Assembly: GCA_000182565.2 (NCBI GenBank)
Contig: KQ257459.1
DNA length: 64,000 nucleotides
From: Spizellomyces punctatus DAOM BR117
Lineage: Eukaryota
Direction: 5' to 3' (one strand)
Both the position numbers and the translations under genes were made by a program. The notes beneath the pieces are model-generated. The model searched no databases. It worked only from the letters and a program-made list of their open reading frames with translations, and was not told the DNA's origin. This document shows, one piece after another, positions 43,609 through 49,603 of this stretch (positions are counted from its first letter, which is position 1; every line of letters starts with the position of its first letter).

Positions 43609-43655
43609 TATTCTGTATTTTTATCTTGTGAAGATCTTGAGGGTCGCTCCGCACC

Positions 43656-45822
43656 ATGGCCCAATTTGACGCTAGCAATCACCTTGCTGACGCAGGGAAC
43701 ATGGCTTCACAAAGCACGTCGTCAACACAAACATCTCACAGCGGCGGGGCCTCGGCGGACACTGTTTCAACGACGACACAGACTACAAGCCATGTCCAGC
43801 ACTCTGTAGCAACGGGCACCGTTCACACGGACACGACTGAAAGTGGAACGGATCCATTCACTCGTGCAGTCAGAGATGCGGGCGTCATGGTGGGAGCTGT
43901 AGAGGGACTTGGTTTGGCAGTGTCTGGTGGGTCCCCCGAAGTTGCGTCTGTTGTGGATTCAACAAGCAACAAGCCCACACACGGGAAGCAGCAAAGTTTA
44001 AGTCTCCCAGCGGTTCCACTTGCTCAGTACGATGAAGATATCGATTCCCCCAATGCATCGTCCATATTTCCCAACCCTCATGCCGGCAAACCGGACAACA
44101 CACCAACTGCTGCAGCAAACTTCCAACTCCCCGATTATGTCCGCTTAATTCTGACCGCTCAAGTGTACGACGTCGCCATGGAATCCCCACTTCAAAAGGC
44201 ACACAACCTATCAACGCGCATTGGAAATACGGTGCTTCTTAAGCGAGAAGATCTGCAACCTGTATTTTCCTTCAAGTTGCGGGGGGCGTATAATCGCATG
44301 CATCAGCTCTCAGAGGAGGAAAAACAGAAGGGAGTCATCGCATGCTCAGCTGGCAACCATGCACAAGGTGTTGCTCTAGCAGCTCAAAAGATGGGTATTC
44401 AGGCAACTATCGTTATGCCAACAGTAACTCCTCCGATCAAGTGGAGAAATGTCCAAAGACTTGGTGCGCAAGTGGTATTGCACGGGAACGACTTTGATGA
44501 AGCAAAAGCAGAATGTGCGAGGCTTGCCAAGGTACTGTGGATTATTCATTTTGTAGAATTCCACATTTTCTCAAGTCCCAAGTGACTAGGAACGCGGATA
44601 TATCAATATACCCCCATACGATGATCCATACGTCATTGCAGGGCAGGGAACGGTCGGTTTGGAAATAATGAGGCAATCTGGACCAAAAATTGACGCGATA
44701 TTTATTTGTATCGGTGGTGGAGGACTGGCAGCCGGTGTTGCATCTTACGTTAAAAGGATCTTTCCCCATGTGAAGATCATAGGGGTTGAGACGCATGATG
44801 CAGCGGCGATGACACGTTCCTTGAAGGCTGGCGAACGTGTTATGCTATCGCAGGTCGGCTTATTCGCGGATGGTGCGGCCGTGAAAGTCGTTGGGGAAGA
44901 AACGTTCCGGGTCTGCAAGGAGTTGGTGGACGAAACTGTACTGGTCTCTACGGATGAAATCTGCGCAGGAATCAAGGATGTCTTTGAGGACACCAGGAGT
45001 GTTGTAGAACCGGCTGGAGCACTCGGTCTGGCGGGGGTGAAGAAATATGTCCAGGAGAAAGGATGCAAGGGCATGACATTTGTTGCCGTGACCAGTGGGG
45101 CGAATATGAATTTTGATCGACTGAGATTCGTCGCAGAACGAGCGGAGCTTGGTGAGAACAGGGAAGCTTTGATTACGGTTATTATTCCAGAGCGACCTGG
45201 CAGGTATGACTACGGATTTCCGGTTCGTGTTAGCTATAAGTCGGTCGTATCTTACGATCTTTGCTGTCAAAGCTTCATGGATCTGTACAAAGCAATCTCA
45301 CCACGAGCTGTATCCGAGTTCTCCTACCGGTATGGCGATCCCTCGGAAGCACACATTTTCATGTCGTTTGTGGTAAACGACAGGGAAAAGGAATTGGGAG
45401 AGATTTTCAAAGAGCTGGATAGCAAAGGGATGCGTGCCATGGATGCTAGTCGGAATGAGATGGCCAAAGCCCACGCTCGATACCTGGTTGGGGGAAGAAA
45501 AGAGGTCGCGAATGAGAGACTTTTCCGATTTTCCTTCCCCGAGCGACCGGGCGCTCTCAGCCATTTCCTGTCTACGCTTCGCCATCCTCTATGGAACGGT
45601 TAGTGAAAGTCAAAGTCGCTCGTTTGATGTTTGTGTTCTGATCTGTCAATTGTAGTATCCTTATTCCATTACCGCAATTATGGCGGCGACGTCTCGAGGG
45701 TATTGGCAGGCGTCCAAGTGCCACCAGAGACAACACACGAGTTTGAAAAGTTTTTAAAGGACCTGAGATATCCATATGTAGAAGAGACAGACAATTTGGT
45801 ATATCAGCAATTCTTGCGATAG
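43656..45822 (+). CDS. ILV1: Biosynthetic threonine dehydratase (ILV1/IlvA) with ACT-like regulatory domains
   Basis: [19 protein letters not shown] (PLP lysine), [38 protein letters not shown] twice, [11 protein letters not shown]. Confidence 0.97.
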
Positions 45823-45955
45823 TTTTTTTGCGAGCACTGTAGAATCATATTTTGTATAACTTATTCAAAAAACCCTTGGTATCACGTGTGTGTAGCCCCA
45901 ATGTTAGCGCGCAATTCAAACCATCTTGCACCCATCTGCAGCGTTTTGCATCATC

Positions 45956-47400
45956 ATGAGGTACATTAAGACTCCTGTTAGACTCTGTCGCAGTCAGTCG
46001 GGACTCTGGCTCGCACGGTTCTACACGACCGAGAGCAATCCCACCAAGAAGGTTGTTGTAATTGGAGGAACAGGGTTGGTATTTTGGAAGACTCGAGTGG
46101 TTCCTTGGACTGATATATATAGTGTTTACATGCTTTTGTTTCAGGTTTATAGGCCCATATATTGCCAGATCTGTTCTTCAAGACTCACCTTCTGCCACCG
46201 TTCAACTGGCATGCCGCTCGCCGCGCGATCATCCTCAAGTTTCTAGCAGCCACGGTGGTCGGCTCCTACCTTCGATCGCCGCAGATGTTACCGATTCCCA
46301 GTCCGTTCGTGAAGCATGTCGCGGAGCATCAGCTGTCGTCAACTTGGTGGGAATCATGCACGAGCGGAGACCACGGTACACATTTGATGCAGTGCAGAAC
46401 GAAGGGGCGCGGGTGATTGCTCAGGCAGCCAAAGATAGTGGAGCCAAGCTGGTGCACGTGAGTGCCATCGGAGCTGATGTGGAGTCGGAGGTACCTTATG
46501 CAAGGACGAAAGGTGCGTCTTTGTGCGGTCAAAAACACCCACGATTGGATTAAGAATGGATACGATATTGGTTCTTAGGACTAGGAGAACAGGCGGTTCT
46601 TGATGTTCACCCCGACGCGTCGGTCGTCCGTCCTAGCCTAGTATTCGGAAAAGAAGATGATTTCTTCAACGTAAGAAAAGATGTGCTGCAAACACTTCTT
46701 TACCCGCGCAATCCGCGAAGTCTACATCGGTTGCATCTCACCATAGACTGGTGTCAAAACCTAGCGCTTTGCCAAACTCGCAAGAATACTTCCTTTTGTT
46801 CCTGTTTTTGGAGGGGGACATACAAAATTTCAACCAGGTATGCTTCTAATGTTCGGAGAGATATGTTATGATCTAGCCCTGCTGATTCCAACTACCCAGT
46901 CTACGTGGAAGACCTCGCCCGCGCCATAACACAGTGCATTGCGACTGACAAGGTCAACGGGAAAATAGTTGAAGTAGGCGGACCACATGGTAACGTGTCT
47001 TTTCATGGTAACGACAAGACGGTAAAGCTGAGCGTAACGTTCAGTGTATGAATACAGGGACCTTATGCAGCTTATGTTGGATCAGGCTGGGATACGGCGC
47101 CCGATCATATCCGTTCCATGGGTACGTGTGCCAAACGTTGAGTTTTTACTGATGCGTTTATCGACATAACCTCCCAATATTAGATCGTCGGTTATATCCA
47201 AGGATTTTTTCTGGAGCGCCTACCAGAGAACTTGTTCACTCTCACCCGTGATCAGGTCAAGCTTTTGCAGCGAGACAACGTGGTGTCAGGAAGTCATATG
47301 ACGCTCGCGGATCTTGGCGTGTCACCGACTCCGGCGGAAGATGTACTGCATAGATATCTGAGGCGTACGCGTTCCGGAACCGGTGTACGTCCACCTACTC
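45956..47400 (+). CDS. NDUFA9/Coq11-like atypical SDR with mitochondrial presequence; N-terminal module of a predicted fusion with pantothenate synthetase
   Basis: Presequence-like MRYIKTPVRLCRSQSGLWLARFYTT; GGTGFIG; VVNLVGI; HVSAIGA; YARTK; RPSLVFGKEDDFFNRFA; FQPVYVEDLA; seven exons traced. Confidence 0.9.
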
Positions 47401-47458
47401 GTGAGTTTGTCTCTGCTATGCACCGTAACACTCTACCTGCTGATACATGGTCCTCCAG

Positions 47459-48399
47459 CCGCAAGCACCCACTCGCGCTCATACTTCACCAGCACCCGTA
47501 AACCGCGCATCGTTGAGACGATTGCCGAATATCGCGCTCTACGGCATCAATGGCAGCGACAAGATCTCAGTGTTGGCTTTGTGCCCACCATGGGAGCACT
47601 CCATGACGGTCACGTAAGCCTAGCCCGCACTGCAAGGAAAACCTGCGATATCGTTGTTGTGAGTATATTCGTTAACCCAGCTCAGTTTGCTCCCCACGAG
47701 GATCTGGGGAAGTACCCACGCACCATGGAGCAAGATGTTGCAATGTTGACGGAGGTCGGTGTGGACGTAATCTTTCTTCCCAACGTCAAGGAAATGTATC
47801 CCGCTGGCATCGTTTTGGACGTCAAGGATCAACAAGGCACATTTGTTGAAGTGAAGGGAAAATCCCACCAAATGGAGGGGTCTATACGTCCGCACTTTTT
47901 TCGGGGAGTCGCAACCGTTGTAACCAAGTTTCTGAACATTATGCAACCCACAAAAGCATTCTTCGGGCAAAAGGACGCACAGCAATGTGCGGTTGTACGC
48001 ACGATGGTTCGCGACTTATTCATTCCCACCGAAATAGTAGTCGGTGAGACCGTGCGGGAGCCAGATGGGTTGGCGATGAGTAGCAGGAACAGATATTTGT
48101 CGCCAGAAGAGAGAGCTATTGCCCCAGTGCTGTACAAGGCTTTATCTGCCGGCCAAAGAGCCTTCAATGAAGGAACGGCAAAGAGCCGCGACGAGCTGAT
48201 ACAAATTGCAAAAGCTATCATTGACGTACAACATGGTGCGGAATTGGAGTATTTAAGTGTTGCAAATCCCTTTTCTTTGGCGGAGGAGGAGCAAGTTGGG
48301 TCCGAGGGTGCGATATTTTCCGGCGCTGTTAGGGTGGGTAAAACGAGGATCATTGACAACGTCCTTTTGGGTATATCAACCGAGACTTGGGTCAAGTGA
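47459..48399 (+). CDS. PAN6: Pantoate-beta-alanine ligase (pantothenate synthetase, PAN6/PanC), last exon of the predicted fusion gene
   Basis: GFVPTMGALHDGH, FVNPAQF, RPHFFRGVATVV, FGQKDAQQ, REPDGLAMSSRN, TRIIDNV; no in-frame ATG upstream of the conserved core. Confidence 0.95.
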
Positions 48400-48697
48400 A
48401 AGCGAGCTCTGTTTTTCCTCTGACGCAGATTTCTTTGAGGTACTCTTTGTATGATGCTCAATGGTGCCTGTCATGTCAAGGACACCTGCAATAACTCAAG
48501 TGTGTACTGCCTTCTATAACTGAGAGCAGATCCACTATTTAGAACCTCGTTCCCCCTAAGGGAGGAGCCCAGGCTTATGCATCGCAGATTGTTTCTATTG
48601 TACGCTAGCTTTCCATTTGATCACGAAACCAGTTTCATAAGATATAAGATATATTCGCCCAGCTCAATTCCACTTTAAGGACAGTTATACAATTACA

Positions 48698-49603
<906 letters not shown>

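What the first reader, a model, noticed from the sequence alone, without database searches (positions are those of the whole stretch)
47359..47510. Fusion linker looks like an internal mitochondrial presequence with an MPP cleavage motif
Seen: the spliced linker LRRTRSGTGVRPPTPASTHSRSYFTSTRKP is rich in Arg/Ser/Thr, has no acidic residues and ends in R-S-Y-F-T-S, resembling R-2/R-3 MPP sites. Known: yeast Arg5,6 and S. pombe Rsm22-Cox11 are imported as tandem precursors and split in the matrix. Inference: one import event would yield two mature proteins, as in a polyprotein.
Basis: inference. Interest (0 to 1): 0.75.

Follow-up and report, generated by a model that had tools for sequence, protein, structure and literature searches.

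The report
Chytrid two-protein mitochondrial precursor, probably split
In this soil chytrid fungus, a gene for an NDUFA9-like protein runs in frame into the gene for the last enzyme of vitamin B5 synthesis through a leftover mitochondrial signal, so one imported chain is probably cut into two unrelated proteins; a second chytrid genus shows the same join, but the cut itself has not been shown.

Summary
The window is Spizellomyces punctatus. An 8-exon model (45956-48399) gives a 658-aa protein identical to the public model P0001: N-terminal presequence, alphaproteobacterial-type NDUFA9-like SDR, linker, pantoate-beta-alanine ligase (PanC). The linker is as described. It lies in the longest acid-free run (38 aa) and carries R352-S353-Y354, the triplet at which MPP splits yeast Arg5,6. 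New evidence: the Gaertneriomyces PanC model starts with the last 24 residues of the same SDR (E 2e-11; only it and P0001 of 257 hit), followed by an acid-free linker with the same RSY. Stand-alone chytrid PanCs often carry such a motif in an N-terminal leader (12 of 25, against 2 of 35 other fungi). So the linker sits where PanC's own presequence was. PanC has no in-frame ATG of its own, and 3'-end RNA reads pile up after PanC, not after the SDR. Best reading (0.6): a tandem precursor split by MPP. Not shown: splicing of the linker intron, import, cleavage. The linker is weakly amphipathic and the +2 residue is non-ideal. New member of a known kind; the scan noted similar linkers on other gene pairs elsewhere, not this pair.

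The parts
45956..48399 (+). Eight-exon gene for a 658-aa SDR-PanC fusion (exons 45956-46074, 46145-46512, 46579-46670, 46765-46837, 46900-46989, 47045-47121, 47184-47400, 47459-48399)
   Evidence: Hand-built splice model is open from ATG to TGA and equals the public model P0001 of Spizellomyces punctatus
45956..46021 (+). Predicted N-terminal mitochondrial presequence, residues 1-22, with R21 at -2 of a predicted cut before Y23
   Evidence: Residues 1-25: 4 R, 1 K, no D/E; best 11-residue hydrophobic moment 0.86; inferred, no TargetP or MitoFates run
46043..47360 (+). NDUFA9-like atypical SDR domain (about residues 30-332), alphaproteobacterial type; S146, Y158 and K162 conserved
   Evidence: Best PDB match 9g83_P, E 3e-54, against 2e-36 or weaker for eukaryotic NDUFA9 chains; ESM Atlas neighbours are bacterial NDUFA9-family clusters, TM 0.90-0.94; last helix 324-332 in the model; conservation
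47358..47505 (+). Linker, residues 332-361, basic, Ser/Thr-rich and acid-free, interrupted by intron 7
   Evidence: coil with pLDDT under 50 over 336-355 in both models
47401..47458 (+). Intron 7 (58 nt, phase 1) whose removal puts PanC in frame with the SDR; if retained, the SDR frame stops at 47499-47501
   Evidence: Consensus donor, branch and acceptor; such a signal set occurs about 0.05 times per kb per strand in shuffled window DNA; no junction read seen
47476..47484 (+). R352-S353-Y354, predicted internal MPP site (cut between S353 and Y354)
   Evidence: Same triplet as the mapped internal site of yeast Arg5,6 (PMC8734313); kept in Gaertneriomyces P0263
47503..48399 (+). Pantoate-beta-alanine ligase (PanC/Pan6) domain, residues 361-658, with intact HxGH (394), GQKD (515) and MSSRN (552) motifs; first in-frame ATG only at 47590 (M390)
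   Evidence: PF02569 E 1.5e-104; TIGR00018 326 bits, cut-off 212.75; motifs; ATG scan
48225..48628 (+). Pile of sense 3'-end RNA reads marking the end of the PanC-containing transcript
   Evidence: Run X5: depth 9-20 here against 0.07-0.13 at 47417-47618 and 0 at 47619-47820

Best explanation
One transcript encodes a tandem mitochondrial precursor. The N-terminal presequence takes the whole 658-aa chain into the matrix; MPP removes it and cuts again at R352-S353/Y354. This releases an NDUFA9-like SDR of about 330 aa (36 kDa class, with a short basic tail) and a PanC of about 305 aa (34 kDa class), perhaps trimmed by Icp55 or Oct1. The arrangement arose when two neighbouring genes for mitochondrial proteins joined in frame: the SDR lost its stop, PanC lost its own start, and the end of PanC's old presequence was kept as the release site. 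Shown: domains, open frame under the splice model, absence of a PanC start codon, linker composition, the same join in a second genus's gene model. Inferred: splicing of intron 7, import, cleavage, trimming and history.
For: (1) Spliced model is open and equals the public model, from an annotation that used RNA-seq in general (PMC4991717). (2) No ATG in the PanC frame between 47362 and 47590; starting at M390 would drop the first two strands and first helix of PanC. (3) An HMM of the SDR C-terminal end, built from 120 SDRs without P0001, hit 2 of 257 PanC upstream segments: P0001 (E 2e-14) and Gaertneriomyces P0263 (E 2e-11); the next best was E 0.18. (4) The Gaertneriomyces linker is of similar length, acid-free, and keeps RSY and TS amid indels. 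(5) Cleavage-type motif in 12 of 25 stand-alone chytrid PanC leaders against 2 of 35 other fungal PanCs. (6) RSY is the mapped internal MPP site of Arg5,6, and internal cutting needs a strong N-terminal presequence (PMC8734313), which is present here. (7) Linker modelled as low-confidence coil between two separately folded domains (Atlas pTM 0.51 with pLDDT 0.81). (8) Sense 3'-end reads follow PanC, not the SDR. (9) In Phlyctochytrium arcticum the SDR model ends without a stop and the PanC model starts at the internal Met, both on a 204,127-base contig; 1 of 10 species with both genes listed shows such a match.
Against: No read or contig shows intron 7 spliced or links the two halves in RNA: X5 is 3'-biased, and the X1-X3 contigs keep the introns. 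The Gaertneriomyces evidence is a gene model whose DNA I could not see, and it covers only the last 24 SDR residues. No second full-length SDR-PanC fusion appeared among the best 120 of 789 longer hits or the best 150 of 30,702 representatives. The linker is weakly amphipathic and has Phe at +2, whereas the consensus in PMC8847149 is R-X-(F/Y/I/L) then (S/A)(S/T). A kept motif can be inherited without being used. In the PanC tree the Gaertneriomyces sequence is long-branched and outside the supported Spizellomycetales group; pairing the two fused sequences alone is rejected (p-AU 0.02), though the order as a whole is not (p-AU 0.23). Low model confidence in a linker with few aligned rows is expected in any case.
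Confidence: 0.6

Rival explanations
1. The fusion is real and imported but stays whole: a two-domain matrix protein in which the old presequence is only a flexible tether, possibly holding PanC near the inner membrane through the SDR.
For: Weak amphipathicity and non-ideal +2 residue. PMC8734313 reports an iMTS-L-like region near residue 344 of Arg5,6 that is not the site separating the two enzymes, so such sequences are not always cut. Many PanB/PanE-PanC and PanC-Cmk fusions exist, most without the motif (93 of 106 long-leader PanCs lack it).
Against: RSY and the lack of acidic residues are kept between two genera whose PanCs are only about 60% identical and whose linkers differ by indels. 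Long C-terminal tails of unfused SDR orthologues are acidic (4-7 D/E in the first 32 residues in 4 of 4 genuine tails), unlike this linker.
Confidence: 0.2
2. Two separate neighbouring genes were merged by gene prediction. The SDR ends at the stop 47499-47501 or elsewhere, and PanC has its own start, for instance from the ATG at 47418 through a 34-nt intron (47425-47458), which would restore the PanC frame with a very short leader, or from a non-AUG codon.
For: Merged models are common among chytrid PanCs: PanC is joined to five different downstream partners. The ATG at 47418 and a GTAAC donor at 47425 are in the sequence. Splicing of intron 7 is unobserved.
Against: The 7 introns of this gene are 55-94 nt, so 34 nt is out of range. 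There is no SDR 3'-end pile, though a silent SDR would look the same. An independent genus shows the same join. A 2020 DNA contig set agrees letter for letter over 46945-47732, so an assembly error hiding a start or stop is unlikely (run X1, depth about 2).
Confidence: 0.1
3. Both forms are made: splicing of intron 7 gives the cleavable fusion, retention gives a 378-aa SDR alone, so intron 7 sets how much PanC is produced.
For: Retention yields a complete SDR with a 33-residue alternative tail and a stop at 47499-47501. Both forms could share the 3' end seen.
Against: Intron 7 has the best consensus donor of the seven. A stop about 1.1 kb before the 3' end would probably invite decay (inference). 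No read evidence either way.
Confidence: 0.1

Closest known systems
Arg5,6 of Saccharomyces cerevisiae / arg-6 of Neurospora crassa (PMC8734313)
   Same: One precursor with an N-terminal presequence and two enzyme domains; the internal site is RSY (R at -2, aromatic at +1), as here.
   Different: Arg5 and Arg6 act in one pathway, form a complex and are fused across fungi; cleavage is proven. Here the partners have no known link, the join is seen in two genera of one order, and cleavage is untested.
Rsm22-Cox11, Etp1 and SPAC22A12.08c of Schizosaccharomyces pombe; Atp25 of S. cerevisiae; RPS14 of rice (listed in PMC8734313)
   Same: Composite mitochondrial precursors, in several cases of unrelated proteins, with a presequence-like stretch and MPP motif at the junction. 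This is the closest kind.
   Different: Different proteins and lineage; none involves PanC or an NDUFA9-like SDR; no chytrid case appears in the parts of that paper I read.
Stand-alone chytrid PanC with N-terminal leader (e.g. P0260, P0262, P0258, P0254)
   Same: 60-65% identical enzyme; an R-x-Y/L-S motif 6-9 residues before the first strand, where the S. punctatus motif also sits (-9).
   Different: They have their own Met and short leader; the S. punctatus copy has none and depends on the upstream SDR.
Alphaproteobacterial 'complex I NDUFA9 subunit family' SDR (PDB 9g83 chain P) and eukaryotic NDUFA9/NUEM
   Same: Same atypical SDR fold and NAD(P)-binding motif.
   Different: Much closer to the bacterial type (E 3e-54) than to fungal NUEM (E 5e-28 or weaker), so probably a second paralogue of unknown role, not the usual complex I subunit. 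That 9g83 is a Paracoccus complex is recalled, not from a call.

Membership tests
MPP-processed tandem mitochondrial precursor | Two separable proteins in one open frame | tested here: met
   Open under the splice model and equal to P0001; same join in the Gaertneriomyces model. Rests on gene models.
MPP-processed tandem mitochondrial precursor | A single spliced mRNA spans both parts | tested here: inconclusive
   One 3' end after PanC and none after the SDR, but no junction-spanning read
MPP-processed tandem mitochondrial precursor | Strong N-terminal presequence | tested here: met
   By composition and moment only: 4 R, 1 K, no D/E in residues 1-25, moment 0.86, R-F-Y-T motif; no trained predictor available
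MPP-processed tandem mitochondrial precursor | R-2 motif with aromatic +1 at the junction, conserved in orthologues | tested here: met
   R352-S353-Y354; kept in the 1 other fused model found; +2 residue non-ideal here
MPP-processed tandem mitochondrial precursor | iMTS-L peak (TargetP profile) at the junction | tested here: inconclusive
   TargetP and MitoFates not available; a charge profile peaks at the linker, amphipathicity is low
MPP-processed tandem mitochondrial precursor | Import and internal cleavage by MPP into two mature proteins | not testable with these tools
   Needs import, MPP assay or N-terminomics
Pantoate-beta-alanine ligase (PanC, TIGR00018/PF02569) | Full-length domain above curated cut-offs with HxGH, GQKD and MSSRN motifs | tested here: met
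Canonical eukaryotic complex I subunit NDUFA9/NUEM | Closest to eukaryotic NDUFA9 orthologues | tested here: not met
   Closer to the bacterial-type chain 9g83_P and bacterial clusters than to any eukaryotic NDUFA9 chain; no tree built, and the genome could not be searched for a second copy
Canonical eukaryotic complex I subunit NDUFA9/NUEM | Present in assembled complex I | not testable with these tools
   Needs purified complex I or complexome profiling

The most novel reading that the evidence does not exclude
The join is a functional pairing, not an accident of neighbourhood. The NDUFA9-like SDR, which keeps a Ser-Tyr-Lys set (S146, Y158, K162) and sits where ketopantoate reductase sits in other eukaryotic PanC fusions, would be an NADPH enzyme tied to mitochondrial pantothenate/CoA supply, co-imported with PanC and released by MPP, with intron 7 acting as a switch between SDR alone and SDR plus PanC.
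Probability: 0.07. Interest if true: 0.75.

Novelty: new member of a known kind. Interest (0 to 1): 0.5.

Why it matters
Only a handful of MPP-split tandem precursors are described (PMC8734313 lists Arg5,6, Atp25, Etp1, Rsm22-Cox11, SPAC22A12.08c and RPS14). This would add a pair of unrelated proteins in chytrids, with unfused relatives that show the ancestral state: PanC with its own leader ending in the same kind of motif. It therefore shows how such precursors can arise from two neighbouring genes. It also implies that the last step of pantothenate synthesis is mitochondrial in many chytrids, whereas the Toxoplasma enzyme is nuclear (PMC8764084) and the yeast one is cytosolic/nuclear (recalled). 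The prediction is exact (R352) and testable with yeast mitochondria. It does not overturn a principle.

Tried and rejected
No whole genome is held for this window, so a second NDUFA9 or PanC copy and intron-length statistics could not be checked. The cluster look-up for accession numbers could not be made, so adjacency in relatives rests on contig lengths alone. Sequencing runs: no RNA holder listed. Four of 7 listed runs were laid: X5 is 3'-biased with reads up to 60 letters, about 6 in 100 of it read; X1-X3 contigs keep introns and so look like DNA; no joints were reported. The metagenome scan gave 1 relative of 142 candidate stretches (L001, 1,524 bases, a stand-alone PanC of 57% identity from an AT-rich contig, no SDR upstream): uninformative. 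The first splice model had three acceptors misplaced and was corrected. A combined SDR+PanC alignment (A1) misaligned the SDRs and was discarded; two single-sided alignments were folded instead, each resolving one domain only. No complex prediction was run, as binding is not claimed. The other chytrid PanC 'fusions' were rejected as parallels: PanC is N-terminal there and the partners differ. A second possible R-2 site (R330-Y331-L332) was set aside because it lies in the last SDR helix. Literature searches that found nothing on this fusion: pantoate + fusion + NDUFA9 (0 papers); Spizellomyces + pantoate (1 paper on anaerobic fungi, listing only); chytrid + polyprotein + mitochondrial processing peptidase + fusion (0); Spizellomyces + gene fusion + pantothenate (0). 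The library lacks most subscription papers. The scan's earlier findings held nothing like this sequence.

Full report
Observation. The finding lies in a plus-strand, intron-containing gene between a threonine dehydratase gene (PALP and Thr_dehydrat_C) and a minus-strand gene whose frames read like a ubiquitin-conjugating enzyme (my reading, not scanned). Seven introns of 55-94 nt give one open frame of 658 codons from 45956 to 48399. This protein is identical to P0001, the public model named pantoate-beta-alanine ligase of Spizellomyces punctatus DAOM BR117. That genome was annotated with RNA-seq among other methods (PMC4991717, whole text read), which does not prove this junction. It has 6 Arg, 11 Ser/Thr, 4 Pro and no Asp/Glu, and lies in the longest acid-free run and the most basic window of the protein. 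A pattern defined after the fact matched 1 of 6,962 positions in the window's long frames and 3 of 146,453 internal positions in the other 493 fetched proteins.

The two halves. Residues 361-658 are a complete PanC with its catalytic motifs. Residues about 30-332 are an NDUFA9-like SDR. Its best solved relative is 9g83_P (E 3e-54); eukaryotic NDUFA9 chains score 2e-36 or weaker and fungal NUEM 5e-28 or weaker; the Atlas neighbours are bacterial NDUFA9-family clusters. It is therefore probably a second, bacterial-type paralogue of unknown role. Orthologues in other early-diverging fungi and agaricomycetes are stand-alone proteins of about 310-380 aa, with a median of 6 residues after the last conserved motif (80 of 122 rows gave a match). 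Two AlphaFold runs, each with relatives for one half only, put the last SDR helix at 324-332, the first PanC strand at 362-364, and coil of pLDDT under 50 between. Low confidence there is weak evidence.

Is the fusion real? Merged models are common among chytrid PanCs, so this was the main doubt. Four results favour a real join. First, the PanC frame has no ATG from 47362 to 47590, and a start at M390 would remove two strands and a helix of the core. Second, low-depth DNA contigs of run X1 agree with the window over 46945-47732 without a difference or gap. Third, 3'-biased RNA reads of run X5 pile up on the sense strand at 48225-48628 (depth 9-20) and at the neighbours' poly(A) sites (45888 and 48633), but reach only 0.07-0.13 at 47417-47618; a silent SDR gene would look the same. 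Fourth, the Gaertneriomyces semiglobifer PanC model P0263 begins with the end of the same SDR: a profile of the SDR C-terminus from 120 proteins, excluding P0001, hit 2 of 257 PanC upstream segments, P0001 and P0263 (E 2e-11), the next at E 0.18. NCBI places both genera in Spizellomycetaceae. In Phlyctochytrium arcticum (recalled as a synonym of Triparticalcar arcticum; NCBI files it in Chytridiales) the SDR model ends without a stop and the PanC model starts at the internal Met, both on a contig of 204,127 bases; none of the 9 other species with both genes listed shows equal contig lengths. Against: no read shows intron 7 spliced; I could not see the Gaertneriomyces DNA; and no second full-length fusion was among the best 120 of 789 longer proteins or the best 150 of 30,702 representatives. 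I put the real join at about 0.9.

What the linker is. In stand-alone chytrid PanCs the same position holds an N-terminal leader, often basic, acid-free and ending in R-x-Y/L-S a few residues before the first strand. With a permissive pattern, 14 of 27 chytrid models matched (12 of 25 without the two fusions) against 2 of 35 other fungal PanCs. Both sets were hand-picked from named rows; I left out 14 chytrid models that start too late to show a leader, 2 near-duplicates, and many redundant Mortierellaceae; some matches are loose. The linker is thus most simply the remainder of PanC's own presequence. The Gaertneriomyces linker is 27 residues against 28, also acid-free, differs by indels, and keeps RSY and TS, which suggests selection but rests on one comparison. 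Powellomycetaceae models (Thoreauomyces, Geranomyces, Powellomyces) have leaders without SDR sequence. A PanC tree of 27 rows left Gaertneriomyces on a long branch outside the supported Spizellomycetales group. With 17 rows, the order as one clade was not rejected (p-AU 0.23) but the two fused sequences alone were (p-AU 0.02). So the fusion may be older than the family, with later fission or incomplete models in Powellomycetaceae; this is unresolved.

Mechanism. PMC8734313 (parts 1-4 of 7 read: abstract, introduction, results, discussion, start of methods; supplements not seen) shows that MPP splits yeast Arg5,6 at RSY 523-525, that the internal cut needs a strong N-terminal presequence, and that Atp25, Etp1, Rsm22-Cox11, SPAC22A12.08c and RPS14 have similar junctions. 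P0001 has a presequence-like N-terminus (moment 0.86, R21-F22-Y23-T24) and RSY at 352-354. The predicted products are an SDR of about 330 aa and a PanC of about 305 aa. After a cut before Y354 the new end would be Tyr-Phe; Icp55 removes Y, L or F and may act twice in plants (PMC8847149, 12 of 22 passages seen), and an octapeptide trim would end at R362, the start of the fold (inference). The site departs from the consensus in having Phe at +2, and the linker is weakly amphipathic (0.40), so it is a candidate processing site rather than a second import signal. Overall: cleaved tandem precursor 0.6, uncut fusion 0.2, merged separate genes 0.1, regulated intron retention 0.1.

Comparison and novelty. 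It works like Rsm22-Cox11 or Atp25 (unrelated partners) and shares its motif with Arg5,6. Membership is supported on sequence features and untested on the defining one, cleavage. Four searches found no paper on this fusion, in a library that lacks most subscription journals; supplements of PMC8734313, whose tables concern Arg5,6, were not seen. A mitochondrial PanC would differ from Toxoplasma, where the ligase is nuclear and the earlier steps mitochondrial (PMC8764084, 12 of 23 passages seen). The scan's earlier notes hold nothing with this sequence but three unchecked reports of similar linkers on other fungal gene pairs, which suggests this kind of fusion recurs in early-diverging fungi; I did not test them. 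Verdict: new member of a known kind, interest 0.5.

Noticed in passing
P0492, P0396, P0383, P0101: Unrelated long PanC proteins (P0492 is PanB-PanE-PanC, P0383 has a PanE end; the other two were not scanned) also carry an R-x-Y/F-S motif in an acid-poor linker just before PanC: possible independent internal MPP sites. Sources unnamed.
   Followed up: partly
P0126, P0127, P0222: SDR-only proteins of Dimargaris and Tieghemiomyces are named 'pantoate-beta-alanine ligase' though they have no PanC domain; probably a name copied from the S. punctatus fusion.
   Followed up: no
P0002-P0007, P0009: Several chytrid models join an N-terminal PanC to different downstream proteins; probably merged models. 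Siphonaria and Entophlyctis luteolus both join it to a 26S proteasome ATPase, which points to shared neighbourhood in Chytridiales.
   Followed up: no
window 45888-45956: The poly(A) site of the threonine dehydratase gene lies only 68 bases before the ATG of the fusion gene, so its promoter overlaps the neighbour's 3' end; weak antisense reads cover 45902-46204.
   Followed up: no
window 48399-48700: The 3' end of the PanC transcript runs up to the poly(A) site (48633) of the convergent minus-strand gene, which reads like a ubiquitin-conjugating enzyme.
   Followed up: no
window 47418-47458: An ATG inside intron 7 followed by a GTAAC donor would, through a 34-nt intron, give an in-frame PanC with a very short leader; probably too short to splice, but it could be a relic of PanC's old start.
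   Followed up: partly
P0122, P0123, P0124, P0129, P0133: SDR orthologues of Glomeromycota and Entomophthora share a conserved charged C-terminal tail of about 55 residues that chytrid and agaricomycete orthologues lack; several agaricomycete orthologues also seem to lack a presequence.
   Followed up: no
window 43641-44100: The threonine dehydratase frame begins with a long Ser/Thr-rich, non-basic extension, not an obvious presequence.
   Followed up: no
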